A stretch of DNA of 64,000 nucleotides, from the IMG/VR virus record IMGVR_UViG_3300031555_001876; one strand, written 5' to 3'. Position 1 is the stretch's first letter; each line of letters opens with the position of its first letter. Shown here piece by piece: positions 3-54,780 of the stretch. The notes under the pieces were generated by a model. It was not told where the DNA came from. It ran no database searches and was given only the letters and a program-made list of their open reading frames with translations. The DNA comes from a virus. A program made the position numbers and the translations under genes.

Positions 3-776
3 CAAAAGGATAATACACAACATTCTATTGATGATTTAAAATTATAGGCTGAAACGGCAAGCAAGATTATTTATGATTAGGCTATGGAAACAATGTAGTT
101 ACAATTAGAATAGTCTGCTGAACGCGAAAGAGAAAAATTTGAAAAAGCGAAAGAAGAATATTTAAATGAATATCAATCAATGCTTGCTCTTGGAGTAGAA
201 GAGTACAATACCGCTATCGCAAATTTATAGTATGAAAAAATTCGACTTGAGGCCTCTATTGCTGATTCACGAAGTGTTGCAGATGCCGCAATTGCCGCAA
301 ACAAACGAGCCTATGAAATCCAATAGTAGAATGATTTTTACAAACTCAATCTCACTGAAAATGATTTAAATGAGATTAAAAAGTTAAAAGATATTATTCC
401 TTATTTGCGTGACCCAGAGGCTTTAAATAAAGTCATTTGGAAAGTTTATTATGAGAAGCCATATACTGATTTAATTGGTAGAGTAATTGGTACTGGCGTT
501 AAAACCGGTATTTATAAAATTACTAATACTATTAATCAAATGTGTTATGTTGGTTAGGCGGCTAATATATCCGATAGATGGAAACAACATATAAAAAGAG
601 GTATGGGTGCAGAAACTCCTACAAAAAATAAACTTTATCCTGCTATGTTAAAGGATGGAGTTGAAAACTTTACTTTTGAATTAATCGAGGAATGTGACCG
701 TTCCTTATTAAATGATAGAGAAGATTACTGGCAAGAATATTTTAAAGCGAAAGAGTTTGGGTATAGTATAAAATGA
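3..776 (+). CDS. GIY-YIG homing endonuclease-like protein, 5' partial (N-terminal coiled coil, C-terminal GIY-YIG); 8 in-frame TAG codons read as sense
   Basis: Frame 3 stays open from the window edge to TGA 774-776 only if TAG is sense. Motifs GIYKITN..YVG(TAG)AANISDRWKQH..ENFTFELIE are present. One TAG sits exactly at the conserved Gln of YIGQ. The stop overlaps the next ATG (ATGA). Confidence 0.55.
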
Positions 777-2318: not shown

Positions 2319-3254
2319 ATGAAAAAGAAGTTAATTAACGAATGTCATATCGAAGGCTATTTATATGAACACGCATTGGAAAATAAAGTAACTGGTGATA
2401 CCTCTAAAAATCCCGGCACTCCCTTTATTTCTGGCACCGTTAGTATTGCTACTGACAATGAAATGACTAATATTGTTTAGGTTCATTATACCTATGTAAC
2501 TGCTGTTACTTCTACTGGTAAGAATAATCCTTCTTTTACTACACTTCAGAATATTATTGATGGTACTTTGAAGTCTGCAATGAAGGATGGTAAGGAAAAT
2601 GCTTCTAAAATTCGCATTGATAGTGCTATTGGACTGAATGAATTCTTCACCAAGCGCAATGGTCCCGAAGAACTGGTTTCCGTTAAGCGCAATGAGGGCG
2701 GCTTTATCCACGTTGCTGATGCTCTGGTTGAAGATGAAAAGCAGAGAAATACTTTTAAGTGTGATATGTTGATTACTAACACTAGACGTGTAGAGGCTAA
2801 TGAAGAGCGTAACGAACCTGAAAAGATGATTGTTAAGGGTGCTATTTTTGATTTCCGCAAGTCCTTAATGCCTGTTGAGTTTACTGTTTTGAATCCTCTG
2901 GCTATGGATTATTTCGAAGGCTTGGAAGCATCCAATAGTAATCCTACCTTTACTTGCGTTTGGGGCCGTCAGATTTCTCAGACCATTTCTCGCACTATTA
3001 CTGAAGAGTCTGCTTTTGGTGAACCTTCTGTAAGAACTGTTACTAGTCAGCGCAAGGATTTCGTTATTACTGGTGCTAATAAGGAAACTTATGTGTGGGA
3101 TGATGAAGAGTTTATGACTGCAACTGAACTGCAGACTTTGATTGCGGCTCGTGAAACTTATCTGGCATCTATTAAGCAGCGTCAGGATGAATATGAAGTA
3201 TCTAAAGCCGCTGCCGCAACCGCTGCTCCTAACAAGGGTGGATTTAATTTCTAA
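2319..3254 (+). CDS. hypothetical protein, possible ssDNA-binding partner of the downstream RecA-like ATPase; one in-frame TAG at 2478
   Basis: RBS AGGAG 2301-2305 precedes ATG 2319. The track ORF 2568..3254 extends upstream in frame through the TAG. The C-terminus ends in an aromatic tail (..KGGFNF). The function is a positional guess. Confidence 0.3.
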
Positions 3255-3282
3255 TCCACCTAATAGAAAGGAGTAAAGAATT

Positions 3283-4248
3283 ATGGCTATTGATTTATTG
3301 GCTATTCAGCCTCATAAGGTTTCTCGTGATTTAAGCGGCTATATTACTTTTGTATATGGCGCTTATAAGACTGGTAAGACCACTCTAGCAACTCAAATGG
3401 GTAAATCTCTGTTGCTTGCTTTTGAGCAGGGCTATAATACATTACCCGGAGTTTATGCACAACCAATTGCAAGTTGGGCTGAAATGAAGCAAGTTTATCG
3501 TGAATTAAAAAAGCCCGAAGTAAAAGCAGCATATAATGTTGTTGTTGTTGATGGTGTTGATATTGCTGCTGACCAGTGTACAAAATATATTTGTAACCAA
3601 AATAGCATTGAATCTCTTGGTGATTTAGCATATGGTAAAGGTTGGGCTAAATTTAAGACTGAATTTAATGAAGTATTCCGTGGATTAACTCAAATGGGTT
3701 ATGCTGTATTCTTCATTGGTCACGATAAGGAAGGTAAAGATGATAATGGTAATATTACCAATATTCGTCCTTTGCTTTCCAATAGTACAAGAGAAGTTAT
3801 TGCAGGTATGGCTGATATCTATGCTTATGCAAAACAATATAATAAGGCTGAAAATTCTGTTTTAGTTTTGCGCGACCCCACAGGTTTTATTGATTGCGGT
3901 TGCCGTTTTAAGTATGTACCTGAAATTATTCCTTGTAATTATGAAGCCTTAACTGAAGCAATTCTTAATGCTATTGATAAGGAAGCCGCAGAGCACGGTA
4001 ATAAATTTGTTACATCTGAACGTATGGCTGTAATTGAAGAAAAAACTTATGATTATGATTCTTTAATGAGTGAATTCCAGACATTGGTTGAGCGGTTAAT
4101 GACTGCTAATCAATCTAATGCTATTAAGATTACTTCAGTTGTCGAGAAGTATCTTGGTAAGGGTAAAAAGGTTGGCGATACAACCCCCGAACAAGCAGAA
4201 TTTATTCATTTAATTAATACTGAAATCAAAGAAGATTTGTTAAGTTAA
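3283..4248 (+). CDS. RecA-like P-loop ATPase (Sak4-like recombination/annealing ATPase)
   Basis: Walker A GAYKTGKTT and Walker B VVVVDGVD are present. Size and context are typical of phage Sak4-family proteins. Confidence 0.5.
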   Translation: MAIDLLAIQPHKVSRDLSGYITFVYGAYKTGKTTLATQMGKSLLLAFEQGYNTLPGVYAQPIASWAEMKQVYRELKKPEVKAAYNVVVVDGVDIAADQCTKYICNQNSIESLGDLAYGKGWAKFKTEFNEVFRGLTQMGYAVFFIGHDKEGKDDNGNITNIRPLLSNSTREVIAGMADIYAYAKQYNKAENSVLVLRDPTGFIDCGCRFKYVPEIIPCNYEALTEAILNAIDKEAAEHGNKFVTSERMAVIEEKTYDYDSLMSEFQTLVERLMTANQSNAIKITSVVEKYLGKGKKVGDTTPEQAEFIHLINTEIKEDLLS

Positions 4249-4876: not shown

Positions 4877-7800
4877 ATGAGTAGTAAATATGTTGACCCC
4901 ACTGCTATTATGCAAGTTATTGGGTGCGTTTATAATAATCCACGATTGTTAGATTATACAGATAAATATACAATAACAGATGATGATTTTCCTGATACAT
5001 TTCATAAAACAGTGTTTGGATGTATATATAAACTTTATGAATTGGGTTCAAAGAAAATTACTTTGGAAAATATATCCGACTTTTTGGATACTCGTCCTAA
5101 AAGTCAAGCAATATATAAACAACAAAAAGGCGAAGAATGGTTATTAAAAGTAAGTGAAAATGCAAATCAATTAACTTTTGATTATTATTATGGACGAATG
5201 AAAAAAATGTCTTTACTTCGTGCATATGATAATTATGGTGTTGATGTGAGCGATATTTATGACCCTGATAACATTCTTGATACTAAAAAGAAACAATTGC
5301 AAGAAGATAATCTTGATAATTCTACATTAGATGAAATTGCTAATAAAGTCGATATGAAAATTGATTCTATTAGACTTCAATATGTAGATAATGTTTTTGG
5401 TAAAGCCCAACAAGTTGGTAGCGGCATTTTTGATTTAATTGAGCAATATAAGCAGAATCCAGAAGTAGGTATTCCTCTTTATGGTCCATTGATTAATACA
5501 GTTACTCGAGGTGCTAGACTAAAGAAATTTTATTTGCGGTCGGCGGCAACCGGAGTGGGGAAAGCAATCCCTAATAACACTTTAATTCCTACTCCTGCTG
5601 GATGGAGAAAAGTTGGAGATATTAGACCCGGAGATAAATTGTTTGGGCAAGATGGAAAAGAAACTATTGTTCTTCAAATTCATCCTCAGCCGCAGGAGAA
5701 AGAAATTTGGAAAGTAACTTTTGCAGATGGAAGAATTGCGGAATGCTGTGGAGAGCATTTATGGGAATATTGTTATAAATCTCATAGGGGATATAGTTAT
5801 AGAGTTGAAGATATTCAAACTATTTATAATAGAACACTTACATTAAAAAATGGTTTAAAAAACAGTGATGGAAAAGGATATAGATTTCATATTAAACTAA
5901 ATAATCCTGTTGAATATGAAGAAAAGCAATATTATCTTCCTCCTTATGTAATGGGTGCTCTACTTGGTGATGGCAGTTTTAGATATAATAATACCAATAA
6001 ATCTCTTGAATTTTCTTCGGCAGATGAACAAATTCCTTCTTTAATTGCTATTGCTCTTGGAAGCAACTGGCAAAAAGGAAAAGTCCATACCATTTATGCT
6101 AAAAAAAGTTCAGAAAATAATTATAGTTGGACTTTTAGAGATAAAGAAAATCCTACTCATCCTTTTTGGGTAGAAGAAATGCTAAAAGATTATCCTAAAC
6201 TTTGGAATGTTAAATCTGAAGATAAGTTTATTCCTAAAGATTATCTACAAGGTTCCATATTTCAAAGACAGTGTTTATTGCAAGGACTTATGGACACAGA
6301 TGGTTCAGTTGATGAAAAAGGTAGAACTTCTTTTACAACTATTAGTCCTCAATTAAGAGATGATTTTATTGAACTTTGTAGAAGTCTTGGTTTTATCGCT
6401 ACTTATTCGACAGACTTACGAGATAAATATTCAACAGGTGAATGTTATACAATTCATATTCAAGCCCCTAAAGAAATGAAGAAACATTTCTTTAGATTAC
6501 AAAGAAAACATAATATTATTAAAAATTATTTAGCAAATAATAAGCGAGAAGAACATAAAGACCATTTAGCAATTATAGATATTGAAAAAACTACTGAATT
6601 ATCAGATATGACTTGTTTTACAGTAGATAATGATAATCATCTGTTTTTAATGAATGATTTTATTGTTACACACAATACTCGTTCAATGATAGCCGATGCT
6701 TGTTATATTGCTTGCGAAAAAATTTATGATGAAATGTTTGGATGGATTAAAACTGGTATAAGTGAACCTGTTTTATATATTGCTACCGAGCAAGATTTGG
6801 AAGAAATCCAAACAATGATGTTAGCATTTGTTTCCAATGTTAATGAAGAGCATATTGTTAATGGACAATATGAAGATGGTGAATACGATAGAGTTAAAGA
6901 AGCAGCGAAAATATTAACTAATTCTAAACTTTATCTTGAAGAATTACCAGACTTTTCTCTTCAAGATGTTGAAAATATTATTAAAAAGAATATTCGTGAC
7001 AATGATACTAAATATATATTCAACCCGAAAAGGGTGTTGGGATAATGAAACACTTTTCCACTAATCAGTGGGGTCTGCGAACTGGAAAATTTTGGAAATT
7101 CGCAGGCTAACGGGGAACCCTAAACGAGAAATCGCAAGGGAATCCCGTGGGAAATTTGGACGAAAATAGTCAATAACTTTTTGACTTCTTTCATACTAAA
7201 ATGAAAGAAGGCGATAAAATGGGTATTATTTATTGTTTTACTAATAAAATAAATAATAAAAAATATATTGGATAGACTATTAATCCTAAATAGCGATATA
7301 ATGCTCATAAAAGCAATTATCAAAATAGTAATAATTAGGAATATAATTCTTTGCTTCATAGAGCATTTAGAAAATATGGCTTTGAAAATTTTGATTATGA
7401 AATCTTATCCAAAGATATAGATGATATAGATTTATTAAATAAATTAGAAATATTTTATATCACTAAATTTAATACAAAAGCCCCAAATGGTTATAATGTT
7501 GAGAGTGGAGGAAAAAATGCTCCTAAACCTAAAACATTAGAACATAAGAAAAAAGAAATTTGGGGTTAGGCTAAATTAACAGAAGAAGAAGTTATTGAAC
7601 TGCGAAAAGCATATAAAGCCAAGAAAAGTCCAACTGAAATTTATAATAAGAAATATAAAAATAGATTACATTATAATTCTTTTTTAAATATTTGGTCTGG
7701 ACGTAGATATGGATTAATTATGCCAGAAGTTTTTGAAAAAGGACGTCATACTAAATTAACTGCTGATATAGTAAAAAAAATAAGAAAAGATAAAGAAACT

Positions 7801-8572
7801 TTAAATCTTTCTTATCAAAAATTAGCAGATAAATATGGTATTTCTAAATCAACAATTGCTGATATAATTAATTATAGAACTTGGAAAGATGTCTAAAAAC
7901 CTGTATCGACTATTCCCTAGGTCTTATGGGCGGGGAAGTAGGGCTACTATTGATACGTAGTCGCATTTTAGGAAACGAAGTGCGTTAAATGCCGAAAAGG
8001 TGTCCTATGATAAATTATCATAGTAAGAGATAGTCAGCGCCTATGGAAACATAGGAGAACGTAGCCACGACTATATACATACTAGTATAAAAATTCTAGA
8101 AGAAATTACTCGCAAGAGTGGTGGAGTTAAATTGCGTGAAGATAATATTCTATTTATGTTATCTACTCGTTTAAAAGATATCTGTAATCAATATGGCGTA
8201 TTTATTATGTCAGCAACGCAGTTAAATGGTGATTATAAAGATAGTGAAACTCCTGACCAAAACTTATTGCGTGGTGCGAAGTCTATTGCTGATAAAATCG
8301 ATTATGGTGCAATTTTATTATCAGTAGTTGATGATGATTTAGTAAAATTAGAGAGTATTCTTGCTACTGGTCAATTTACTACACCAAATATTAAAATGTC
8401 TATTTATAAAAACCGTCGAGGCAGATATAAAGGAGTTTATTTATGGTGTAAGGCAGATTTAGGAACCTGCCGCATTAAACCTATGTTTTGTACAGATTAT
8501 CGATATGAATTACAAAGTATCGATGATATAAGAGTAAGATTTGAAGAAGAGTCAGCGTTTGAAGATGTATAA
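4877..8572 (+). CDS. DnaB-like replicative helicase, split gene: exon 1 ~4877..7038 (containing intein 5564..6676), group I intron ~7039..8064, exon 2 8065..8572
   Basis: The Walker A SAATGVGK|T is interrupted by the intein. Exon 2 reads ..DYIHTSIKILEEITRKSGG..LSTRLKDICNQYGVFIMSATQLN.. and matches the DnaB H2-H4 region. The unspliced read-through ends with the junk tail NPKRVLG*. The exon junction is uncertain by about 25 nt. Confidence 0.6.
5564..6676 (+). mobile_element. intein (371 aa) with a LAGLIDADG homing endonuclease domain, inserted in the helicase P-loop
   Basis: The insertion lies between GVGK and T of the Walker A motif. Two LAGLIDADG motifs are present (YVMGALLGDGSF, LLQGLMDTDGSV). 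The C-terminus ends ..THN followed by +1 Thr. Residue 1 is Ala, not Cys/Ser, and block F reads MTCFTVDNDNHLF. Confidence 0.6.
7039..8064 (+). mobile_element. group I intron A in the helicase gene, carrying GIY-YIG HEG 7219..7896
   Basis: The 5' part contains GCTAACGGGGAA..AATCCCGTGGGA (pairing CGGGG/CCCGT). The 3' part contains the S-like element AGATAGTCAG, a P9 hairpin CCTATGGAAACATAGG and a terminal G. These elements recur in introns B and C. The 5' splice site is uncertain; candidates are 7020, 7038 and 7043. Confidence 0.55.
7219..7896 (+). CDS. GIY-YIG homing endonuclease (intron A ORF); 4 in-frame TAGs
   Basis: Sequence MGIIYCFTNKINNKKYIG(TAG)TINPK(TAG)RYNAH..YGFENFDYEIL is present. 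A TAG sits at the Gln of the YIGQT motif. The C-terminus is HTH-like. Track ORF 7351..7569 is one fragment of this gene. Confidence 0.6.
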
Positions 8573-10227: not shown

Positions 10228-10279
10228 TGAATTAATTGTATATAAAAGAATATTCAAATAAAAAGATGTGGTCTAGTCG

Positions 10280-12991
10280 ATGAAATATCAATTAATCAAT
10301 AAAGTATTTCCACCTGGATTGTCTGCGGTTGAAAAGGTCTTTTACAATCGTGGAATTAAACCAGAAAATTTAGACCATTATTTAAATACAACAGATAACG
10401 ACATTCTTGACCCATAGACTATCGCAAGAATAGATAGTGGTGTTAAAATGTTGATATCACATATCTCACAAGGTGACAAAGTTCTTATTTAGGTAGATAG
10501 CGATTGTGATGGCTATACTTCTGCGGCTACACTTATTAACTACTTAAATTGTCTCTTCCCCGGCTTTGTGTAGAATAATATATCATATCGTATCCATATG
10601 GGGAAGGAACACGGCATTTTACCAGACACAATTCCAGATGGAGTAAAATTAGTAATTGCTCCTGATTCAAGTAGCAATGATTATGAACAACATAAAATCC
10701 TAAATAAGTCTGGTATTGACGTGTTAGTAATAGACCATCACGAAGCCGAGAAAATATCTGATTATGCTTGCGTTATCAACAATCAATTATGCGATTATCC
10801 TACCAAGTCATTAAGTGGCGTTGGTATGGTATATAAGTTCTGTCAAAGAATTGATTAGTGGATGGGTTGTGATTACGCAAACCTCTTTTTAGATTTAGTC
10901 GCACTCGGTATGGTGGCAGATATGATGGACTTGCGCGATTATGAGACACGGCATTTAGTTGACCGCGGCTTAAAAAATATCCGCAATCCTTATTTCAAAG
11001 AAATGGTACAACGTCAAGCATTTCCTTTGCGGAATGGTATCACTCCTTTTGGAATAGCATTTTATATTGCTCCTTTCGTTAATGCTACTGTGCGAAGTGG
11101 AACGCAAGATGAAAAGGTCATATTATTCGAGTCTATGCTTGATTATCGGGGATATGAACGAATCCCATCAACTAAACGTGGATGTAAGGGTCAAACAGAG
11201 ACTCGGGTAGAACAGGCTTGTCGTAATTGTATAAACATTAAAAACAGGCAAACCGATACAAGAGACAAAAGTCTGGATGTAATTAAACGGATAATTGAAG
11301 AACAAAAATTGCTAGATAATAAGATATTAGTCATACTATTAAAAGAACAATATGCGACTGATAAAAACCTAACTGGTTTAATTGCTAATGAATTAGCAAA
11401 TAAACTACAAAGACCCACCCTTATCTTAAATGAAAAAGAAGATACTTGGGAAGGTTCAGCAAGAGGATACGATAAATCAGAATTAAAAGATTTTAAACAG
11501 TTCTTAACCAATAGTGGCTATTTTGAATATACTGAGGGTTAGTGGAATGGCCCTAAAACCTTTTTTCCGTGTGTCGCGGAGGTCATTTTTATTAAAATGG
11601 CTAACGGGGAATTCTAAATATAATAGAGATATTATACATGAAAATCCCGTGGGAAGATTTTCGTTATATCTCCTAAATGAAAAAATAAAGGAGATTAATT
11701 ATAATGGAAAAATATATTTATAAAATAGAAAATTTAATAAATCATAAAATTTATATTGGACAAACTAATAATTATAAAAGACGTTTTATAGAACATAAAA
11801 ATAGAGGGTATAAAAAAGATACCAAAGTTTTATATTATGCTTTTGATAAATATGGAATTGAAAATTTTGATTTTTCTATTATTGAATTTGTTAAAAATTA
11901 CAATGAACGTGAGAAATATTGGATAAAATATTATGATAGTTTTGAAAATGGTTATAATATGACAGAAGGCGGAGAAGAACCTCCTGTTTTCCATGGAGAA
12001 AATCATCATTTAGCAACTCATACTCAAATAGATAATGATTATATTGTTTATTTATTAAAAGAAACCAATATTTCTATAAAAGATATTGCTAAATTAACTA
12101 ATTATAATACTTCTTCTATTAATAGAATTAATAAAGGAGAAATGTGGCATCAAGATAATTTAGAATATCCTATAAGAAAAAAAGGAACATTATTAGAAAA
12201 GCAAGAAAGAATTAAAAAGATACAATATGATTTATTAAATACTACTTTAACCCAAAAAGAAATTGGAGAAAAATATGGAGTTGGAAGAACTACTATTACC
12301 GCAATTAATAGAGGTCAAAATGGCTATAATCCAACTTTAAATTATCCATTACGAAAATAACCTGTATCGACTATCCCAAGTGAGATTGGGAGTAGGGCTA
12401 CTATTGACACGTAGTTCGAAATGGGGTTCTGCGCGCACTCGTTCATCTAGTTAGTTGAATGATGCAAGCGCAGTAAAAGATAGTCAGGCCTTATGGAAAC
12501 ATAAAGGATTACCGCACGCCAATGCATTCGGCGCAGGAATTAAAAAAGATAAAGTTGATGATTTTATCAAATATTCAAACTCTTATTTAGCAAATTTGGA
12601 CTTCTCCCCTTGTTATAATGTAGATTTGTTATTTACAGGGAATGATTTAAATAATAAAGATATTCTTGATTTAGCAAATCTAAAATCTATATGGGGCCAA
12701 GGAGTAGAGGAACCTTTGATTGCGATAGAACATTTAAATATTCACGGCGGAAATGTTCAATTAATGTCGCGAGATAAGAACCCTACTTTGAAGATAACCT
12801 TACCAAATGGTATGAGTTTAATCAAATTCAGGTCGTCCGAAGAAGAATATAAAAAATTATATTCTGAAACGGGTTGTGTAAGTATTAACATTATTGGAAA
12901 ACCAGAACAGAACGTTTGGAATGGTATTATCAGTCCGCAAATTATTATTGAGGATTACGAAATTATAAGTCAAACAAAATACTATTTCTAA
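10280..12991 (+). CDS. RecJ-like DHH-family exonuclease, split gene: exon 1 10280..11539, group I intron 11540..12514, exon 2 12515..12991; 4 in-frame TAGs in exon 1
   Basis: Motifs DSDCDGYTSAA (DxDxDG), VIDHHE (DHH) and, across the exon junction, EG|HANAFGAG (RecJ GGHxxAAG motif) are present. Exon 1 ends in U. The intron ends in G. Confidence 0.6.
11540..12514 (+). mobile_element. group I intron B in the RecJ-like gene, carrying GIY-YIG HEG 11704..12360
   Basis: The 5' splice site follows GGU 11537-39. The conserved elements GCTAACGGGGAA..AATCCCGTGGGA, AAGATAGTCAGG and P9 CCTTATGGAAACATAAAGG are present. The terminal G is at 12514. Splicing restores the RecJ motif. Confidence 0.6.
11704..12360 (+). 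CDS. GIY-YIG homing endonuclease (intron B ORF); no TAG codons
   Basis: Sequence KIYIGQTNNYKRRFIEHKN..YGIENFDFSIIE is present. Gln in the motif is encoded by CAA. The C-terminal region has HTH repeats. Confidence 0.7.
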   Translation: MEKYIYKIENLINHKIYIGQTNNYKRRFIEHKNRGYKKDTKVLYYAFDKYGIENFDFSIIEFVKNYNEREKYWIKYYDSFENGYNMTEGGEEPPVFHGENHHLATHTQIDNDYIVYLLKETNISIKDIAKLTNYNTSSINRINKGEMWHQDNLEYPIRKKGTLLEKQERIKKIQYDLLNTTLTQKEIGEKYGVGRTTITAINRGQNGYNPTLNYPLRK

Positions 12992-15876: not shown

Positions 15877-18800
15877 ATGTATTTTAATTGTCATAATCAT
15901 ACAATGTATTCGAATCTTCGATTACTTGACTGTATTAATCAACCAAAAGATTTAATTGATAAAGCAATTGAATTAGGTCTTTCTGGAATTGCTATTACTG
16001 ACCACGAATGTTTGTCAGCGCATATGGAAGTAAATCAATATGCTAAAAAACTTTTAGTAACTAATCCTGATTTTACTATTGCATTAGGTAATGAAATTTA
16101 TTTAACTGATGATAGAGAATCAGGACAAAAGTATTATCACTTTATTTTAATCGCAAAAGACGCTTTAGGGCATAAAGCATTAAGAGAATTAAGTTCTATT
16201 GCTTGGTATAATTCTTATGTTGATAGACGTATGGAAAGAGTTCCAACAACAAAAGAAGAACTTGCCGAAGTTGTTCTTAAATATAAAGGACATTTAATTG
16301 CGACAACTGCTTGTATTGGCGGTGAATTAGGCACCAATATTCTTTATATGCTTGATTGTGATAGAGTTGGTGATACTATTAATAGAATGACTTATCATAA
16401 TAATATTATTGAATTTATTCAATATTGTAAAAATCTATTTGATGATGATTTCTATATTGAATGCGCTCCTTCAAGCACGGCAGACCAAATCGCAGTTAAT
16501 AAAATGCTATTAAAAATTGCCTCTGTTTTTGATGTTAAATTAGTTCCTGGAACTGACTCTCATTATTTAACTGCAAAAGAAAGACCAATTCATAAAGCAT
16601 ATCTTAATTCAAAAAATGGTGAAAGAGAAGTTGATGATTTTTATGAATTTTCTCATTTGATGGATTCTAATGAATTATATAATTTATTAAAATTATCATA
16701 TGAACAGTCTGTTATTAATGAAATCATATCTAATTCATTAGAACTTCAAAAGAAAATTACTTTTTACTCTCTTGAACGCAAACAAATTATTCCAAAAGTA
16801 GAAGTTTTAGATTATCAAAAAACCTTATCTCATTTTGGTATTAATAATAATTTGCGAGATGAATTAGATAATAGTTGGCCTACTATTAAAAGTCTTTTAT
16901 TATCCGATGATATCCAAGAACGGTATTGGATTAATGAATGTTTAAATGGATTAATTGATAAGGATTTGTGGAAATATGAGTATATTTCAAGAATAGAAAC
17001 AGAAGCAGACATTATAAAATATATTGGTTCTGGTCTAAATGATTGCCTTTTTGCTTATTTTAATACCTTTAAACATTATATTGATTTATTTTGGGAGTGC
17101 GGTAGTATTGTAGGACCAGGGCGAGGAAGTGCTACCGGTTTTTTATCAAATTATTTACTTGGTATTACGCAACTTGACCCCATCCGTTGGAATCTCCCTT
17201 GGTGGCGTTTTCTGAATCGGGAGAGATTAGAACTACCGGATATCGATATAGACCTTGCACCATCCAAGCGCCCTTCTATATTCAACGCCATTCGCGAAGA
17301 GCGTGGTGAGTTTGGTCTCATTCAAGTAGCCACCTTCGGAACAGAAGGAACAAAATCAGCAGTCTTAACTGCTTGCCGTGGTTATAGAAGTGAAGATTAT
17401 CCAGATGGTATCGACGTAGACCAAGCGCAATATATGTCCTCTTTAATTCCGCAAGAACGTGGTTTCTTATGGGATATTAAAGATGTTGTATATGGTAATC
17501 CAGAGAAAGACCGCAAACCTGTTACGACTTTTATTAGAGAAGTAAATAGATTTCCAGGTTTATTAGATATTATTATGTCTATTGCAGGTCTTGTAAATAA
17601 GCGCTCTTCTCACGCTTCTGGTGTTATTTTATATGGCGAAGACCCATATGATACAGCGGCTTTTATGAGAACTCCTAGTGGTGATTTAATTACTTGCTAT
17701 GACCTACATAAAGCAGAAGCCGCAGGAGATACTAAATATGATTTCCTAGTAACAGAAGTTTCAGATAAAATTATTAAATGTATTGAATTACTTATTGAAG
17801 ATGGAGTTATTAAACAAGACAGTTTAAGAAATACTTATAATAGTATTCTTCATCCAGAAGTATTAGATACAACTGATAAAAAGATTTGGGAACATCTTGC
17901 CGCAGGTGATGTTCTTGATGTATTCCAGTTTAGTGGTGGTGTCGGTTTAGCAATTGCTAAAAAACTAAAACCGCAAGACCCTCTAGAAATGACTGCGGCG
18001 AATGCTATGATGAGACTGATGAGTGAAAAAGGCGTTGAATCACAGCAAGATAGATATGCTAGAATTCAACGAGAAGGTATTCATATTTTTGATTGGGAAA
18101 TGAAACAAAAAGGTTTACCAGAAAATATGATTGCTAAATTACATAAACATTGTGATAAGTATTTTGGTTGTTGTCCTATCCAAGAGCAGATGATGGAAAT
18201 ACTTATGGATGTTGCTGGATTTACTCTTGGAGAAGCAAACTCTGCTCGAAAGATTGTTGCTAAAAAGCAAATGGATAAAATTCCACAATTAAAAGAACAG
18301 GTATTTAGTAGATTTGATAATCATAATATTGCTGATTATTTTTGGAAATTAGCAGTAGCACCGCAATTAGGGTAAATGGCTTGCCCTTACACACCTAACC
18401 TGTTATCGCAGGGGTAAATTAATAACCCTTTTTGGGGCTAAACTTATTAATTTGCTAACGGGGAAAGTTAAGTATTAATGAAAGAATCATTAATATATAC
18501 CAATCCCGTGATAAATGTCTTAATGGTCCTTTAATACATCTTAAAGGAGAAATGAAATGGTATTTTATATTTATAAATATACTAATTTAATTAATAATAA
18601 AAAATATGTTGGTTAGACTAATAATTTTCAAAGAAGAGTCAACGAACATAAAAGTTGTTCTTTTAATCCCAATAGTGTAAATTATGATGATAAAATTCAT
18701 CAAGCAATTCGTAAATATGGATATAGCAACTTTAAAATTGAAATTCTTGAAATTATAACAGAGGCTAAAACATATGATTTAGTGAATGAACGTGAAAGTT

Positions 18801-20876
18801 ATTGGATTAAAGAAGAGCAAAGTTTATTGACTCAATGGGGATATAATGTTTTAGAAGGTGGAAATAATAGTTGGAGGTCTTTTTTAACACAAGAAGATGT
18901 TGAAAAGATAAAAATGATGATTAAAGATGAAATACCTTATTCAAAAATACAAGAATATTATCCCATATCTAAAACTTTTATTTCAGGCATCAATTCTGGA
19001 AAATATTTTTATAATGAAAAAGAAATATATCCTTTATGCAGATATCGAATTTCTAATGATATCTATGATGCTTTAATTGAAGATTTAATAAAACCTGAAC
19101 TGACTTTTAAAGAACTAGCACAACGATATAATTTAGGAGAATCAACTATTAAAAAATTTAATTATGGCACATTACAAAAAGGATATTATAAAGGTGAATA
19201 TCCTATTAGAAAAATAACTCCACAAAAATATAAAAGACAATTGATAAAAGAATATTTATTAAACACTAATCTCCTATATAAAGATATTGTAAAATTAACT
19301 GGAACGTCTGATGAAACAGTGCGCAGAGTTAATATAGGTGCAATTGATAAAGATGAAAATTTAAAATATCCATTAAGATAAATATTGTAGAGACTATTCT
19401 GGGTGAGACCGGAAGTAGGATTACTATTGATACGTAGTTCGAAATGGTGTGCTATAATTTGTATATTATAGTAAAAGATAGTCCAGTCCTCATAGAAATA
19501 TGAGAATAACTGATGCATTTAGTTTGAATCATTCTCTTCCTTATTCATTTGTTGGTATTCAAACTATTTATTTAGCATATAAATTTAATCCTATTTATTG
19601 GAATACTGCTTGCTTAATTGTTAATAGTGGCGCTACTGATGAAGAAGCAGGCGGTCAAACTGATTATGGTAAAATAGCAAAAGCAATTGGAGATATTAGA
19701 AGTGCGGGTATTAAAGTCAGTCTTGCTAATATTAACCGATCTAAATTTGGTTTCGCTCCTGACGTAGATAAGAATCAAATACTTTTCGGTCTCAAAGGAT
19801 TGCTAAATGTTGGCGATGAAATTGTCCAAAAGACAATTGAAAATAGACCTTATTTTTCTGTAAAAGACTATGTAAATAAAGTTAAACCAGGTAAACAAGC
19901 AATGATTTCCCTTATTAAGGGAGGGGCTTTTGATGAATTAGAACCTGATAGAAAATTTACAATGGCTTGGTATATCTGGGATAATTGTGATAAAAAGAAA
20001 AGAATTACTCTTCAAAATATGCCAGGATTAATCAAATATGATTTAATTCCAAAAGACACAGAAGATAGAATTACTGCTTATCGAGTATATGAATTTAATC
20101 GTTATTTGAAAGCAACTTGTAAATTCACTCCTACTGATTATAAAGTAGATGAACGTGCTTATAACTTTTTGATAAAAATTTCTTGTGATGATATGATTCA
20201 CGGAGATATGTTATTAGGAGTTAAACAATGGGATAAAATTTATCAATCTTATATGGATATCTTCCGTGCGTGGATTAATGAAAATAAAAACCAAATTCTT
20301 AATGATTTAAATAGTAAAATCTTTAAAGAAGATTGGGATAAATATGCGTCCGGCAATATCTCTTCTTGGGAAATGGAAGCATTATGTTTCTATTATCACG
20401 AACACGAATTATCTAATGTAAATAGATGGAAGTATGGATTCGCTGATTTCTTTAAACTTCCAGTAGAACCAGTAATTGCTTCTACGTTTGAGCGCGGAGG
20501 TAAAGATATTAATATTCTTAAATTAGATAAAATTTATGGAACTTGTATTGCGAAGAATAAAAATAAATCGACAGTTACTTTACTAACTCCTACTGGCGTT
20601 GTCGAAGTAAAGTTTAGAAAAGAATATTTTAGTTTGTTTGATAAAAGAATTAGTGAACGTGGAGAAGATGGCGCAAAACATATTGTTGAAAAATCTTGGT
20701 TTGACCGAGGTAGTATGATTGTTGTTATGGGATTCCGTTCTGGTGATAATTTTATTACAAAGAAATATGCGAAAGATTCTGGTCATCAATTATATAAAAT
20801 TGATAAAGTAGAAGAAAATGGCGATTTAATTTTGCGCTCTACAAGATATCAAGGAGAGGAAGAAGAAGATGGCTAA
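15877..20876 (+). CDS. DNA polymerase III alpha-like replicative polymerase (DnaE/PolC family, N-terminal PHP domain), split gene: exon 1 15877..18373, group I intron 18374..19512, exon 2 19513..20876
   Basis: A PHP motif (HNHTMYSNL..ITDHE) is present. Splicing joins ..APQLG-Y-AFSLNHSLPYSFVGIQTIYLAYKF.., which matches the conserved DnaE YAFNKSH..Y.LKAHYP segment. Exon 1 ends in U at 18373. The intron's terminal G is at 19512. Confidence 0.65.
18374..19512 (+). mobile_element. group I intron C in the polymerase gene, carrying GIY-YIG HEG 18557..19381
   Basis: The same conserved core as A and B is present (GCTAACGGGGAA..AATCCCGTG; AAGATAGTCCAG; P9 TCATAGAAATATGA). The exon phase is restored on removal. 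Confidence 0.65.
18557..19381 (+). CDS. GIY-YIG homing endonuclease (intron C ORF); one in-frame TAG
   Basis: Sequence MVFYIYKYTNLINNKKYVG(TAG)TNNFQRRVNEHKS is present. The gene is continuous with track ORF 18782..19381. Confidence 0.65.
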
Positions 20877-23995: not shown

Positions 23996-24932
23996 ATGGC
24001 TTTAATATATAAAATTACAAATAAAATTAATAATCAATCATATATTGGAAAAACGATTCAACCTTTAAAGGTAAGATATCAAGAACATCATCAAGACTGT
24101 GCTAAATATTTAAAAAATCAAAAAACTTCTATTCCATTATATAATGCAGTTAATATTTATGGCTGGGATAATTTCACAATAGAAATTATTGAAGATAATA
24201 TCCCTAATAAGTTAATTAATGAAAAAGAATAGTATTATATAAAATATTTTGATACTTATAATAATGGTTATAATGCTACTCTAGGTGGAGATGGTGGAAG
24301 AACTTGTTCAAAATTAAATGAAAGTACAGTCCAATTAATTATTCAAATATTATTAGATGAAAATAATTTAAATTCATTAGAACAAATTGCAAAATAGTTT
24401 AATATTAGTACTACAATTATATCTTCTATAAATCAAGGGAAAGCCTGGTATAATGAAACATTAAATTATCCATTAAGAAAATATAATGTAACAGGATTAA
24501 GCATTAATAAATAGACATATAATAAAATTATTAATGATATAAAGAATACAAATTTATCTTTAAATAGTATTTCTAAAAAATATAACTTAACAGAAAATTA
24601 GATATGTGCAATAAATAATGGATACGAATGTTATAATGGAAAACATCCATATTATACTCCTATTTACGAAGGGCCTTTTCCAATTAGAAGTACAAATAAA
24701 AAAATTGATATAACTAATAATATTCAAAATATATTATATGATATTATTTTTACAAAAGAATCTATGTCTAAAATTGGAGCAAAATATAATCTGCAAGGAA
24801 ATACTTTAACATACATAGCCAATGGGAAAAGAAGAAAAGAACTAACTAAAGATTTTATAACTCCATTACGACATAATATAGAAATAAATAAAAAAATTTA
24901 TAAAAAAATATATTCAATTAAAGAAGGTGATT
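23996..24932 (+). CDS. free-standing GIY-YIG homing endonuclease between nrdD and nrdG; 4 in-frame TAGs
   Basis: Sequence MALIYKITNKINNQSYIGKT..YGWDNFTIEII is present, with C-terminal HTH-like repeats. The gene has its own promoter-like TATATAAT and an RBS. Confidence 0.55.
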
Positions 24933-24934
24933 AA

Positions 24935-32352: not shown

Positions 32353-35300
32353 TTAATAATAACTTTCAGTATCCCATACAGGGATTATTTTATTTAAATA
32401 ACTTGCAGTATAAGTAATTTCTTTAGCATATATATCATCTTCAACAATAGAGTCACTTAATACGGCTTCACCAGTTAATAACATTAATGACCAATTGTTA
32501 TTAACATATTGACCCCACCAGGTTTCTTCAGCAACTAGTTTAGTAGCATCTTCCTTATCGATGTGATATATATTCATAGTATATACTTCACCATTTTGGC
32601 TATTAGGTACTCCATTCGCAATATCATATTGAGAAATAATATCATTTAATTCATCTATCTTACTAATATAATAAACAGACGAATTATTTTCATCTTTCTC
32701 TAATGAGCCTACTTCAACATTGTCTTTACGAATAAATTGTAAAGTCTTTACACTTTGAGGGGTGCCAACAGGACCTAAAATAGAACCTTGCTTTATCCAT
32801 TTTCCATTTATATACATAAATACCCAGCCACGGCAAGGGTCATCTACTCGAGTTACAGTATGAATATAAATATCATTTTCACTTAAATCTCTATCTTCTA
32901 AAATATTAGGCTAATAAGAGTTTGTGTCTGCGTTCCAAGATAAATCTTTATCTTTAAGGTCTGAAGCAGTAAAAATATGAATTGCTTTTGGTAAATAGAA
33001 ACTAAATAATTGAACATCTTGATTTCTAATTGATTCCTCTATTTGAATCTCTTCTCTATTATTTATTTCTATTTTTTCACTTCTAAAGTAAGGAATATTT
33101 GGAATATGAAAAATAAATTTTTCTCGATATCCATTATCTTTTTCTCCTATTAATAAATTAGTTGATAATTCAACTTTTGAACGTGTATATTTCTAAATAT
33201 TATCTACTGAATCTTTATAAAGTTCAAAAGCAGATTTTTCTTGAATTTCAACTTCTGGAGAAGGTGCTGTTATAATTCCTATATATCTTACACTTAATAA
33301 ATTTTCTTTTTTACTCTTAAATTGATATAATCTACCTGAAGGCTTATTAATATACATATCTCCAGGTAATACGTCCTATTCTAATAAAGCAAAATGATAT
33401 CTTAAATTAGATAATAAATAAGTATATTTTTGAATATATTTTATTATATCATAAGAATAAATAAGATATTCTCTTTCAACACTTTCTTCTAATAAATTAT
33501 CTTCATTATGCAATTTAATATAAATCCATCTTAAATCAATAACTGAATCATAAGAATTATATAAATTTAATAAAGTAGATAAATTTGAATTCCACATATA
33601 ACCTTTATAATACTAATAACAATATTCATACTATTTATCAGTATTTAAAGTATTAAAATATTCTTTACTATAAAAATTATTTTTATTCCAACAATCATTT
33701 AAGAGATTTAAATCATTAATTGTATTAGGTCTATAATTAGAGATAAAATTTTCTAATGGTTCTTTCATTTGATATAATTCTGAATAAATTGCATCACAAT
33801 AGTCTTCTAATTTATCTTTATATTCATATTTTAAAGTATTTTTATTAAAACCATATAAGCCCCAAGGAATTTTATTTTCTAAATCATCTACTTCAGAAGT
33901 ATTACTTAAAATATTAAGCAAACTTTTATCTTTGTAATAATAATTTTTGATAGAAGGATAATTATCAATATTATTATTTATATAATCAGTAAATAATCTT
34001 ACACTAAATATTTTATCAGTATCATCTACTGTCATAATTTCAACAGAACCATTACCACCATCAAAATATAAAATAGTTCCTTTAACTTCGTTAATAGGAC
34101 ATAATTTTGCATATACTCTAATAAAATTATCTAATATTTCGACTCTAAAGAAATCTTCTTCATAAGGATTGCTCATTGTAAGAATTGCAGAGTGAGAAGT
34201 TGTTATTCCTTCTACTGGAATGTCAACATAGAACTAATAACTTTCAGTAGCATAATTAGGATTAACTTCCCAATTTCCAAGAGTATCAATACTATATTTT
34301 CCCGCTGGTTCTATCCCTTCGCCAATCTATACTGCAATCATTCCATCACGAGTATTAACTGTTTCATCTTGATTTAAATCAGCATACATTAATTCGACTT
34401 CATCTTCTATGCCAACTAAAGATTCTGTTATAATTCTTCCATCTTCAGAATCAATCTTTCCATCACCGTTAACATCACCACGCATACGACCGGCCGGAAT
34501 GGTAATTTCCTAATTCTCACTATTATTACTTATATCCGCCGCGCTTAATGCGCCGCGCAGTAAACTAGTTAAATCAACTATTTTATTAATATCTTCACTA
34601 CTACAACTATAAATAATATCATCAAAAGACCAAGGATGTTCTGCAGTATAACTAAATGGAAATTCATTTAAATCGCCTTGCCCAAATAAAGGACCAGAGA
34701 AATACTTTACTTCTCTTGGTAACTAAAAATCTAAAATAGGTTTAGTTAAAGTTGCTTCAACTAATTTACCATCAATTTCTCTAACTTCACCACTTACTAA
34801 CAAATCAACATCTGGGTCTCTAGTAGGCCCTAGAACTGTATTATAAATATTTTCAATTCTCTATGCTCTTTGCTAATAAAATTTAATCTGTGGTTTATCA
34901 GGGTTAGTTAAATCATAGGTCACATAAGGATCTCCATCTTCAATATCAATAGTCTAATGGAAAACTTGAATTCTTGGAGTTTGACCTGTAACACAAGCAA
35001 TTAAACGATAACCAAAGCCAAAATTCTCTTCAGAATAAATATCAGAAGTTTCTTTTAAACTTTCACCAGGTATCTATCTAAATCTAATAATAGTACCATC
35101 AGGATTAATCCAGTTACCATCTTTATCACAAGGAACATTTTGATTTAAACTTGGAGAATAAATAGAGTATGTTCCATCTCCATTAGGATTTACTTCTCCA
35201 ACATCTTCAAAATTAATAAAAACATAAACATTTTCTTCCGAATTGGGAAAGTCAGGAGATACTTCTTTACTATCTTCTACATAAATCTTCTACCAAATAG

Positions 35301-35568
35301 AGTTAGTATAAGATTTACCACAATTCATTAAGTCAATATTTAAATTCTATTCATAAGTAGAAGGCTCAACAATTGTTTCACCATTTTCATTTTTATATAT
35401 TTTATTTAATTCAGCAATATCGCCATAACTAATAAAAACATAATCGCCAACATTAATAGGAGAATACCAACGAGCCTATAAGTCTTTTAATAAATCTTCA
35501 GAGCGATTCGAGAAGATTTGAGAAATTCTAAAATCTTGACCTTTCTATCCACCATAAAAACTATACAT
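32353..35568 (-). CDS. large tail fiber/receptor-binding-like protein (1071 aa) with an internal dockerin-like double Ca-binding repeat; ~17 in-frame TAGs
   Basis: The minus frame is continuous from ATG 35568 (RBS GAGGGGGGAAG) to TAA 32353 with TAG as sense. It joins track ORFs 32353..32817, 33376..33597 and 33631..34176. Motifs GDVNGDGKIDSEDGRII..ADLNQDETVNTRDGMI are encoded around plus 34330-34500. Confidence 0.5.
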
Positions 35569-42987: not shown

Positions 42988-43099
42988 ATTTTACCTCCTT
43001 TATCTCATATTATCTATTTAAATTTAAAAAATAACTTTCTATAATGTGCGATATTTGCCCAAAAAGAAAAAGGATAAGGGTATATTTATACCCTTATCC

Positions 43100-54742: not shown

Positions 54743-54780
54743 ATAGATATTACTCCTTTCACTCTTTTATTTTTATATAT

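What the first reader, a model, noticed from the sequence alone, without database searches (positions are those of the whole stretch)
5564..6676. LAGLIDADG intein in the helicase Walker A motif with Ala at position 1; the helicase gene is triply invaded (intein + intron + HEG)
The P-loop reads SAATGVGK-[371 aa]-TRSMIADACYIACE, so the insert sits between Lys and Thr of GxxGxGKT. The insert has two LAGLIDADG blocks and ends HN with +1 Thr. Its first residue is Ala, which is non-canonical, and block F has a Cys (MTCFTV), reminiscent of class 3 inteins that start from an internal Cys. The same gene also carries intron A with its own HEG 1.3 kb downstream.
Basis: partly seen in the sequence, partly recalled or inferred. 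Interest (0 to 1): 0.6.

Follow-up and report, generated by a model that had tools for sequence, protein, structure and literature searches.

The report
Class 3 intein in phage helicase
A phage replicative helicase gene is interrupted by a self-splicing protein element (a class 3 intein with its own homing nuclease) in the ATP-binding loop and, 345 bases further on, by a self-splicing RNA intron with a second nuclease gene; both are real and well defined, but both are known kinds of mobile element.

Summary
Bases 5564-6676 encode a 371-aa insert between Lys and Thr of the helicase P-loop (SAATGVGK|TRSM).

An uninterrupted helicase allele that is 98% identical and has the same length (P0001; loci L004 and L005) lacks exactly this insert. 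It also lacks exactly 7021-8064, so both sets of boundaries are fixed to the base.

The insert is a class 3 intein:
- It starts with Ala1.
- Trp67, Cys351 and Thr369 align with the WCT triplet of the solved class 3 DnaB inteins 6RIX and 6BS8.
- His370-Asn371 is followed by Thr+1.
- The intein carries a two-motif LAGLIDADG nuclease domain.
- Ala1 is the norm in its family (91 of 106 homologues).

The site is the known DnaB site b.

The second insert (7021-8064) has group I intron hallmarks: U.G at the 5' splice site, a terminal G, a covarying P7 and an ORF-less homologue. It scores only weakly against Rfam. Its GIY-YIG/HTH nuclease gene (7219-7896) is intact only if TAG is read as Gln.

The whole window uses TAG as a sense codon. 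Coding coverage rises from 46% to 91% when it is read that way.

Verdict: a new member of known kinds, correctly read by the first stage, and of modest interest.

The parts
4877..5563 (+). Helicase N-extein (229 aa; DnaB N-terminal domain and the start of the ATPase domain, ending in SAATGVGK)
   Evidence: Pfam DnaB N-terminal domain at residues 12-96. Collinear with SPbeta YorI and with Enterococcus and Geobacillus phage helicases. Twelve differences from P0001 over the whole spliced protein.
5564..6676 (+). Class 3 intein, 371 aa (HINT splicing domain plus LAGLIDADG homing endonuclease domain). It contains no TAG codons.
   Evidence: The insert is absent from the 98%-identical allele in L004/L005.
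5729..5770 (+). Intein block B, GRIAECCGEHLWEY: Cys62 (B:7), His65 (B:10, 5756-5758), Trp67 (B:12, 5762-5764)
   Evidence: Aligned to HQW of 6RIX and 6BS8. His and Trp are invariant in 111/111 homologues.
5945..5980 (+). LAGLIDADG motif 1 (YVMGALLGDGSF; Asp136)
   Evidence: The fold matches PI-SceI.
6272..6310 (+). LAGLIDADG motif 2 (CLLQGLMDTDGSV; Asp244/Asp246)
   Evidence: Aligns with FLAGLIDSDGYV of PI-SceI. Pfam LAGLIDADG_3 covers intein residues 238-292.
6608..6676 (+). Intein blocks F and G: MTCFTVDNDNHLFLMN DFIVTHN, with Cys351 (F:4, 6614-6616), Thr369 (G:5, 6668-6670), His370 and Asn371 (6674-6676)
   Evidence: Aligned to VRCVEVDN...PTHN of 6RIX and 6BS8. Cys is invariant in 112/112 homologues; Thr, His and Asn in 110/110.
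6677..7020 (+). Helicase C-extein, first part, up to the end of exon 1 (Thr+1 ... TKYIF). Exon 1 ends in U7020.
7021..8064 (+). Group I-type intron, 1044 nt. P1 has a U7020.G7040 wobble. P7 is GACUAU (7908-7913) paired with AUAGUC (8030-8035). The P9 hairpin is at 8040-8055. The terminal G is G8064.
   Evidence: Absent, to the base, from L004/L005. Weak Rfam Intron_gpI match: 11.3 bits here, and 17.3 bits over the full model for the ORF-less homologue in L012. Covariation in the 3' core. Folds. Homologous introns sit at the same site in L010, L012, L065-L068 and L072.
7219..7896 (+). Intron-encoded GIY-YIG plus HTH homing endonuclease gene (225 codons). In-frame TAG codons lie at 7273, 7291, 7336 and 7567; the true stop is TAA.
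   Evidence: With TAG read as Gln, Pfam gives GIY-YIG at E 1.3e-8 and HTH_3 at E 1.7e-5. Homologues at 65% identity in L067, L068 and L072 keep full-length ORFs with 3-6 TAG codons at other positions and Q where this gene has TAG.
8065..8572 (+). Helicase exon 2 (HDYIHTS..., from Walker B to the C-terminus). No start codon precedes Walker B in this frame.

Best explanation
The gene at 4877..8572 encodes the replicative DnaB-type (SPbeta YorI-like) helicase of a large phage that reads TAG as Gln. It carries two independent homing elements.

(1) After transcription, a group I-type intron (7021-8064) is removed. This joins ...TKYIF to HDYIHTS... and gives an mRNA for an 883-aa precursor.

(2) The precursor's P-loop is split by a 371-aa class 3 intein. 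The inferred splicing path follows the established class 3 mechanism:
- Cys351 (block F:4), activated by His65, Trp67 and Thr369, attacks the Lys(-1)-Ala1 peptide bond and forms a block F thioester branch.
- The N-extein is passed to Thr+1.
- Asn371 cyclises and releases the intein.
- An O-to-N shift restores GVGKT in a 512-aa helicase.

(3) The freed intein carries a two-motif LAGLIDADG nuclease, which would cut intein-less alleles and copy the intein in during co-infection. The intron's GIY-YIG/HTH nuclease would do the same for the intron.

(4) The intron nuclease holds four in-frame TAG codons, so it can be made only when TAG is being read as Gln.

Shown here: the exact boundaries, the empty alleles, all catalytic residues, the predicted fold, the covarying RNA helices, and the sporadic distribution. 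Inferred: the actual splicing chemistry, nuclease activity, and timing.
For: Boundaries and empty alleles:
- Removing both inserts gives a protein of the same length as uninterrupted P0001 (L004, L005). It is 98% identical, and both junction peptides are identical.
- The spliced protein is collinear, without gaps, with YorI and other phage helicases. Pfam DnaB_C becomes one continuous match at E 5e-15.

Class 3 signature:
- Top PDB sequence matches are the class 3 DnaB inteins 6RIX, 6RIY and 6BS8, with Trp67, Cys351 and Thr369 on their WCT residues (papers read).
- Among the 120 best homologues: Ala1 91/106, Lys-1 104/106, His B:10 111/111, Trp 111/111, Cys 112/112, Thr 110/110, His-Asn 110/110, and +1 Thr 101 or Ser 9.
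- The AF2 model has pLDDT 95.3. Its best fold matches are PI-SceI, TliVMA and PI-PfuI.
- The second LAGLIDADG motif aligns with that of PI-SceI.

Mobility:
- None of 61 IMG/VR relatives scorable at that site carries this intein; 5 of 62 carry the intron.
- Synonymous differences from the empty allele cluster just upstream of the intein site: 24 in 180 nt, against about 1-3 per 60 nt in the preceding 300 nt.

Intron:
- U.G wobble in P1 and a terminal G.
- Compensatory changes in P7 and two other helices across the window, Enterococcus phage EF5 and Lak phages.
- The ORF-less 358-nt homologue in L012 covers the full Rfam group I model.

TAG = Gln:
-.
Against: No experiment was done, so splicing of either element is inferred.

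The Rfam group I model scores far below its gathering threshold (11.3 and 17.3 bits against 50). Helices P3-P6 were not assigned with confidence.

One engineered intein shows that the WCT triplet alone does not guarantee class 3 splicing (gp41-1_WCT, PMC7664689).

No suppressor tRNA lies in the window, so the means of TAG decoding is not seen here.

The excess of synonymous changes near the intein site is suggestive only. The 5' end of the gene is just as divergent.
Confidence: 0.88

Rival explanations
1. The insert is an intein that splices by another route. One option is class 2 (KlbA-like), where the +1 residue attacks the N-terminal junction directly. Another is a variant class 1 route that uses some other nucleophile.
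For: Ala1 is shared with class 2 inteins. Grafting WCT onto a class 1 intein did not by itself give class 3 splicing.
Against: Class 2 is defined by lacking the WCT triplet, and its members have Cys+1. Here WCT is complete and invariant across the family, and +1 is Thr. The nearest solved relatives are experimentally class 3. No Cys, Ser or Thr lies at or next to position 1.
Confidence: 0.04
2. The intein is a splicing-dead relic, and the interrupted helicase is non-functional or replaced by another helicase.
For: Degenerate class 3-like inteins exist, for example the Arthrobacter FB24 Arth_1007 pseudogene (abstract of PMC3196547, listed). No activity was measured here.
Against: All catalytic residues of both the splicing and nuclease domains are intact. 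The ORF is open across 722 codons with no TAG. An identical copy occurs on a separately catalogued JGI contig (L006). No second DnaB-type gene was seen in the ORFs examined. The model is confidently folded.
Confidence: 0.04
3. The 7021-8064 insert is not a self-splicing intron. It is a free-standing endonuclease cassette that splits the helicase into two separately translated polypeptides.
For: Rfam finds no group I intron at its gathering score. Split genes with free-standing homing endonucleases are known in T4-like phages (my own knowledge).
Against: The Walker B-encoding stretch 8065-8131 has no in-frame start codon upstream and is preceded by stop codons, so it can be translated only after splicing. 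The insert ends exactly at U|...G. The RNA core is conserved with compensatory changes in unrelated phages. An ORF-less 358-nt version sits at the same site.
Confidence: 0.04

Closest known systems
Mycobacterium smegmatis DnaBi1 and M. chimaera DnaB1 inteins (class 3; PDB 6BS8, 6RIX/6RIY)
   Same: Same host protein type (DnaB-family helicase). Same insertion point, the P-loop after GK, known as DnaB site b. Ala1, His65 and Trp67 carry identical numbering, and the block F Cys and THN are shared, with Ser or Thr at +1. These are the best PDB sequence matches.
   Different: They are mini-inteins of about 139-145 aa with no nuclease domain. Identity is only about 25-31% in the HINT part. Block B:7 is Asp in them and Cys62 here. 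Their hosts are bacterial chromosomes, not a phage.
Mycobacteriophage Bethlehem DnaB intein (prototype class 3 intein; Tori et al. 2010, PMC2807308)
   Same: A phage helicase intein with a non-nucleophilic first residue, the WCT triplet, Thr+1 and a comparable length (its terminal Asn is Asn341). This paper's experiments define the mechanism assumed here.
   Different: A different phage lineage (actinophage) and a divergent sequence. Block B:7 is Ser62 there.
P-loop 'GK|T' class 3 inteins of phage terminases, PhoH and helicases (for example TerL1-a; Kelley et al. 2016, PMC5050341)
   Same: The classic Lys|Thr P-loop insertion and the WCT signature. The homologues found here sit in PhoH, AAA, terminase and DnaB hosts.
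   Different: Different exteins. The nearest full-length intein relative is only 54% identical (P0123).
PI-SceI / PI-PfuI / TliVMA (inteins with LAGLIDADG nuclease domains)
   Same: The same two-domain architecture. These are the best whole-model fold matches (E 1e-16 to 1e-11, TM about 0.6-0.7), and the LAGLIDADG motif 2 aligns.
   Different: These are class 1 inteins with Cys1 in other host proteins. Identity is about 14-17%.
Phage group I introns carrying GIY-YIG endonuclease genes (T4 td/I-TevI type), and the recoded intron endonuclease of Agate phages (Borges et al., bioRxiv 10.1101/2021.08.26.457843)
   Same: An intron in an early replication gene. It carries a GIY-YIG plus DNA-binding endonuclease ORF in a peripheral loop. 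In-frame reassigned stop codons should delay endonuclease production.
   Different: Here the reassigned codon is TAG (Gln), not TGA. The Rfam score is weak, and self-splicing is untested.

Membership tests
Intein (HINT-domain protein-splicing element) | In-frame insert whose removal restores a contiguous, conserved host protein | tested here: met
   Removal gives GVGK|TRS, identical to uninterrupted P0001 and ungapped against YorI-type helicases.
Intein (HINT-domain protein-splicing element) | Splicing blocks A, B, F and G with a C-terminal His-Asn and a nucleophilic +1 residue; HINT fold | tested here: met
   Blocks located. His370-Asn371 and Thr+1. The AF2 model (pLDDT 95.3) matches PI-SceI and the DnaB inteins.
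Class 3 intein | No Cys/Ser/Thr nucleophile at intein position 1 | tested here: met
   Ala1 (GCA, 5564-5566). Ala occupies this position in 91/106 homologues.
Class 3 intein | WCT triplet: Trp at B:12, Cys at F:4, Thr at G:5 (with block B His) | tested here: met
   Trp67, Cys351, Thr369 and His65 align with W67/C124/T143/H65 of 6RIX and W67/C118/T137 of 6BS8. They are invariant in the family.
Class 3 intein | [quoted passage not shown] | tested here: met
   Thr+1 (ACT, 6677-6679). The family has Thr in 101 and Ser in 9.
Class 3 intein | Splicing depends on the block F Cys and passes through a block F branched thioester intermediate | not testable with these tools
   Needs expression, C351 mutants and detection of the intermediate.
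Class 2 (KlbA-like) intein | [quoted passage not shown] | tested here: not met
   The WCT triplet is present, so this intein is not filed as class 2.
DnaB site b intein allele | Insertion in the P-loop of a DnaB-family ATPase domain, directly before the Ser/Thr of GKS/T | tested here: met
   GVGK|T within Pfam DnaB_C. Site b is the P-loop according to PMC6195587.
LAGLIDADG homing endonuclease (two-motif, intein-borne) | Two LAGLIDADG motifs, each with a conserved acidic residue, and the LAGLIDADG fold | tested here: met
   LLGDGSF (Asp136) and LMDTDGSV (Asp244/246). Pfam LAGLIDADG_3 and Hom_end. PI-SceI alignment and fold match.
LAGLIDADG homing endonuclease (two-motif, intein-borne) | Site-specific cleavage of the intein-less allele | not testable with these tools
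   The candidate target is the empty site in L004, about 6166-6225.
Group I intron | Exact excision restores the reading frame; the 5' exon ends in U, paired with G in P1; the intron ends in G | tested here: met
   The 7020|8065 junction equals the uninterrupted allele. The U7020.G7040 wobble is in the minimum-energy P1 hairpin, and G8064 is terminal.
Group I intron | Conserved catalytic core (P3-P9, with P7 and the R/S elements) supported by covariation | tested here: inconclusive
   P7, one internal stem and P9 are supported: 8 of 21 pairs show changes on both sides, 92.9% of cells are paired, and slid controls give 15-50%. The AAGAGAUAGUC sequence matches the S element. P3-P6 were not assigned.
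Group I intron | Match to Rfam RF00028 at the gathering score | tested here: not met
   0 hits at gathering. 11.3 bits for a truncated match here. 17.3 bits over the full model for the ORF-less homologue. The threshold is 50. This is a detection criterion rather than a defining property, but it lowers certainty.
Group I intron | Self-splicing with a guanosine cofactor | not testable with these tools
   Needs an in vitro splicing assay.
GIY-YIG homing endonuclease | GIY-YIG catalytic domain plus a DNA-binding domain in an uninterrupted ORF | tested here: met
   Met only when TAG is read as Gln: GIY-YIG at E 1.3e-8 and HTH_3 at E 1.7e-5. Under the standard code the ORF is cut into four pieces. 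Homologues keep the ORF with TAG codons elsewhere.

The most novel reading that the evidence does not exclude
The helicase may be under layered, conditional control rather than merely parasitised, in three ways.
- Its intein has a cysteine-rich active site: Cys61-Cys62 in block B, with Cys at B:7 in 77 of 111 family members, next to the catalytic Cys351. This could act as a redox- or metal-sensitive switch on replication, as shown for the mycobacterial DnaBi1 intein.
- The intron nuclease is gated by the phage's TAG-to-Gln code switch, so homing would be confined to late infection.
- The P-loop codons of this helicase family are also a shared landing site for an unrelated insert. L074 carries a 1.1-kb insert with out-of-frame LAGLIDADG pieces at or near the same point.
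Probability: 0.12. Interest if true: 0.5.

Novelty: new member of a known kind. Interest (0 to 1): 0.27.

Why it matters
This is a clean, fully delimited example of a class 3 intein that still carries its homing nuclease, in an uncultured phage that reads TAG as Gln. Matched empty-site alleles are available for both the intein and the neighbouring intron. That makes it a convenient test case for several things:
- Class 3 splicing with an intact LAGLIDADG domain. The solved class 3 DnaB inteins are mini-inteins.
- Homing-site mapping.
- The published idea that recoded stop codons delay intron endonuclease production.

Practically, gene callers using the standard code will mis-annotate this region, and Rfam misses the intron. 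It does not change what is known about inteins or introns.

Tried and rejected
- **Rfam scans.** At the gathering score the whole window gave nothing. A permissive scan of 6800-8400 gave only chance snoRNA-like hits. Only sub-range scans and the ORF-less homologue gave weak group I matches.
- **Close cultured relative.** Megablast against phage genomes found none. It returned only a 100-nt match of the intron core to Enterococcus phages EF1 and EF5.
- **Suppressor tRNA.** ARAGORN found no tRNA in the window.
- **Shifted intein boundaries.** A shift of one residue either way was rejected. It would not restore GKT and would remove the terminal Asn.
- **Intein and intron as one linked unit.** I considered whether they travel together, because L010 and L012 carry both. 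I rejected this as a general rule: in IMG/VR, five relatives have the intron alone and most have neither.
- **L074 as an 'intein-only' allele.** Rejected. Its 1110-nt insert is not homologous to this intein, and the LAGLIDADG pieces are out of frame with the helicase.
- **Whole-core folding.** Minimum-energy folding of the whole intron core did not reproduce a textbook group I fold, so only local helices are claimed.
- **Unavailable paper.** Tori and Perler 2011 (PMC3133030) could not be read.
Full report
**1. The observation**

ORF 4877..7045 (+ strand, 722 aa) carries a DnaB N-terminal domain, a LAGLIDADG domain and part of a DnaB C-terminal ATPase domain. Translation of 5504-6736 reads RSAATGVGK / AIPNN...(371 aa)...IVTHN / TRSMIADACY.

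Both LAGLIDADG motifs are present: YVMGALLGDGSF at 5945-5980 and CLLQGLMDTDGSV at 6272-6310. The block F Cys is also present (MTCFTV, Cys351 at 6614-6616).

The match is far beyond chance:
- Pfam gives LAGLIDADG_3 at E 4e-9 and Hom_end at E 9e-7.
- There are 826 phage records by tblastn.
- There are 242 database proteins at E<=1e-10.

**2. Boundaries**

I joined 4877-5563, 6677-7020 and 8065-8572 in silico. The 512-aa product aligns without gaps at either junction to uninterrupted helicases of Enterococcus phage VRE9_3, SPbeta (YorI) and Geobacillus phage GR1 (37-39% identity). Pfam DnaB_C becomes one continuous match (residues 206-471, E 5e-15).

The decisive evidence came from the large protein database. 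It holds an uninterrupted helicase, P0001, that is 512 aa long and differs from my construct at only 12 positions. Both junction peptides are identical: SAATGVGK|TRSMIADACY and TKYIF|HDYIHTS. Its contigs, L004 and L005, are collinear with the window at about 90-95% DNA identity and lack exactly 5564-6676 and 7021-8064.

It does not. Shifting the boundary by one residue either way would destroy GKT or remove the terminal Asn.

**3. What kind of intein**

The published definition of class 3 has three parts (PMC2807308; PMC5050341):
- a non-nucleophilic residue 1;
- the non-contiguous Trp (B:12), Cys (F:4), Thr (G:5) triplet;
- Ser or Thr at +1.

Most class 3 inteins sit in ATPase P-loops of helicase-like and terminase proteins.

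The best PDB sequence matches of the insert are exactly the solved class 3 DnaB inteins: M. chimaera DnaB1 (6RIX, 6RIY) and M. smegmatis DnaBi1 (6BS8). In the printed alignments, His65-x-Trp67 falls on HQW, MTCFTVDN falls on VRCVEVDN, and VTHN falls on PTHN. These are W67/C124/T143 and W67/C118/T137 in the structure papers.

Among the 120 best homologues the signature is essentially invariant:

| Position | Residue | Count |
|---|---|---|
| 1 | Ala | 91/106 |
| -1 | Lys | 104/106 |
| B:10 | His | 111/111 |
| B:12 | Trp | 111/111 |
| F:4 | Cys | 112/112 |
| G:5 | Thr | 110/110 |
| G:6-G:7 | His-Asn | 110/110 |
| +1 | Thr / Ser | 101 / 9 |

A second alignment of 64 sequences gives the same invariant residues. 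Ala1 is therefore the family norm, not an anomaly.

DnaBi1 sits in the DnaB P-loop at 'site b', the same site as here.

An AlphaFold2 model built on 64 homologues is confident (pLDDT 95.3, pTM 0.93). As a whole it matches the nuclease-bearing inteins PI-SceI, TliVMA and PI-PfuI (E 1e-16 to 1e-11). Its HINT part matches the class 3 DnaB inteins at 24-31% identity. The second LAGLIDADG motif aligns with FLAGLIDSDGYV of PI-SceI.

All sequence-level criteria for class 3 are met. The chemistry itself could not be tested.

**4. The second insert**

ORF 4877..7045 stops at a TAA 25 nt beyond the point where homology to other helicases ends. Helicase sequence resumes at 8065 (HDYIHTS..., Walker B). 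That frame has stop codons upstream and no start codon before Walker B, so the gene can work only if 7021-8064 is removed from the RNA.

Evidence that it is a group I-type intron:
- The excised segment begins after U7020 and ends in G8064.
- The minimum-energy fold of 7012-7048 pairs U7015-U7020 and the first intron bases with 7033-7044, placing a U7020.G7040 wobble at the splice site.
- The 3' part contains GACUAU...AAGAGAUAGUC, followed by a GAAA-capped hairpin.
- Rfam's group I model aligns there weakly (11.3 bits, E 1.2, model positions 172-253). At the gathering score Rfam finds nothing.
- The 3' core is 79-87% identical to segments in Enterococcus phages EF1 and EF5 and in Lak megaphages. 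In EF5 the segment lies directly after an ORF inside a split DNA polymerase gene.
- Across these sequences P7 changes from GACUAU/AUAGUC to GGUCAU/AUGACC. In all, 8 of 21 proposed pairs show changes on both sides and 92.9% of cells pair, against 15-50% when the partner is slid.
- Homologous introns occupy the same codon in related helicases. One is an ORF-less 358-nt version in L012, which covers the full Rfam model (17.3 bits, E 0.06).

I call it a group I-type intron with good but not complete support. P3-P6 were not assigned, and self-splicing is untested.

**5. The intron's ORF and the genetic code**

Under the standard code the intron holds only fragments of a GIY-YIG gene. All four interruptions are TAG (7273, 7291, 7336, 7567). 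Read as Gln, they give a 225-aa protein with a GIY-YIG domain (E 1.3e-8) and an HTH.

This led to a window-wide check. Stop-to-stop ORFs of at least 150 aa cover 46% of the window under the standard code and 91% if TAG is sense. They cover only 47% if TGA is sense. One minus-strand ORF runs 2887 codons with 52 TAG codons.

Between the window and L004, TAG alternates with Gln codons in 9 of 12 variable positions. One example is helicase codon 13, which is Gln here and TAG in L004.

Homologous intron nucleases in L067, L068 and L072 (65% identity) keep full-length ORFs with 3-6 TAG codons at other positions. They have Q where this gene has TAG.

So the phage reads TAG as Gln, and the intron nuclease is intact in that code. 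The helicase exons and the intein contain no TAG. No suppressor tRNA lies in the window.

Both points are known in kind:
- Borges et al. describe a recoded group I intron endonuclease in an early gene of Agate phages and propose late-only production.
- Yutin et al. describe gut phages that combine recoding, introns and inteins.

**6. Distribution**

I scored 62 related helicase loci from IMG/VR (contigs up to about 200 kb) at both sites.

| State | Loci |
|---|---|
| Neither insert | 55 |
| Intron only | 5 (two ORF-less at about 347 nt; three at about 1040 nt with the nuclease gene) |
| This intein | 0 (of the 61 loci scorable at that site) |
| Insert at the P-loop site, not homologous to this intein | 1 (L074; 1110 nt with out-of-frame LAGLIDADG pieces) |
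| Intein site not scorable | 1 (L073) |

Through the intein search I found the same site occupied by related inteins (40-87% identity) in helicases 46-75% identical to this one. Two loci have intein plus intron at the same positions: L010 with a GIY-YIG gene, and L012 with an ORF-less intron.

An identical copy of the intein allele occurs on a JGI contig (L006, 2874 nt at 100% identity).

Synonymous differences from the empty allele are concentrated just upstream of the intein site: 24 in 180 nt, against about 1-3 per 60 nt in the preceding 300 nt. GC content is locally raised. This fits a co-conversion tract from a foreign donor. It is not conclusive, because the 5' end of the gene is equally divergent.

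This sporadic, independent distribution is what homing elements show.

**7. Mechanism**

Shown here: the boundaries, catalytic residues, fold, empty sites and RNA covariation.

Inferred from the established class 3 pathway (PMC2807308, PMC6195587, PMC7664689):
- Cys351 attacks the Lys-Ala1 bond.
- The N-extein passes to Thr+1.
- Asn371 cyclises.
- GVGKT is restored.

Also inferred are nuclease-driven homing of both elements and the restriction of intron nuclease synthesis to the period when TAG is decoded.

**8. Verdict**

The element is a new member of a well-described class (class 3, DnaB site b, with a LAGLIDADG nuclease). It lies next to a group I-type intron carrying a GIY-YIG gene, in a phage that reads TAG as Gln.

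Genes carrying more than one such mobile insert are already described. To my own knowledge, the SPbeta ribonucleotide reductase genes are a further precedent.

Interest is modest, about 0.27. The value lies in the clean empty-site comparisons and in its use as an annotation test case.

Noticed in passing
whole window, e.g. minus strand 46106..54766, 39439..42990, 32353..35583; plus strand 10262..11617: The window uses TAG as a sense codon, most likely Gln. Coverage by ORFs of at least 150 aa rises from 46% to 91%. One ORF has 52 in-frame TAG codons. TAG alternates with Gln codons in 9 of 12 variable positions against relative L004. No tRNA gene lies in the window.
   Followed up: partly
window 11704..12360, ~18554..19381, ~23996..24934 (plus 7219..7896): The replication module holds four GIY-YIG(+HTH) endonuclease genes. 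One splits the RecJ-like gene: 10262..11614 and 12341..12988 both match a single 578-aa gene in L004, which lacks about 970 nt here. One lies between two DNA polymerase III alpha fragments (15877..18375 and 19458..20876). One follows the NrdD-like gene. These are probably further introns.
   Followed up: partly
window 7185..7210: A strong hairpin (CUUCUUUCAU...AUGAAAGAAG, -12.5 kcal/mol, z -5.5) covers an upstream ATG and the GAAGG Shine-Dalgarno sequence of the intron nuclease start codon at 7219. It may restrict translation, as is known for the T4 td intron nuclease (my own knowledge).
   Followed up: no
window 5744..5749 (intein Cys61-Cys62, block B): Block B:7, the Thr of the class 1 TxxH motif, is Cys here. 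It is Cys in 77 of 111 family members (CxxH), next to the catalytic centre that holds Cys351. It might be relevant to redox or zinc control, as reported for mycobacterial DnaB inteins.
   Followed up: no
window 5384..5563 compared with L004 6016..6195: Synonymous mismatches against the intein-less allele cluster upstream of the intein site (24 in 180 nt, with identical protein), and GC is locally raised to about 0.40. This looks like a co-conversion tract from the intein donor.
   Followed up: partly
L074 ~2890..4000: A related helicase has a 1110-nt insert at or next to the same P-loop codons (the ORF breaks after GVG). It is not homologous to this intein and carries out-of-frame LAGLIDADG ORF pieces. 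It may be an intron using the same hot spot.
   Followed up: partly
L006 1..561 and 3436..3540: The JGI contig that carries the identical intein allele matches the window at 100% over 2874 nt, then diverges abruptly at both ends. The right-hand break falls 40 nt after the intein (window 6716). This could be a chimeric assembly or a further variable insert.
   Followed up: no
L007 2501..2659; L008 and L009 ~300..390: The 3' core of the helicase intron is 79-87% identical to segments in Enterococcus phages EF1 and EF5 (inside a split DNA polymerase gene annotated only as hypothetical proteins) and in Lak megaphages. The same intron family appears to circulate among very different gut phages and goes unannotated.
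   Followed up: partly
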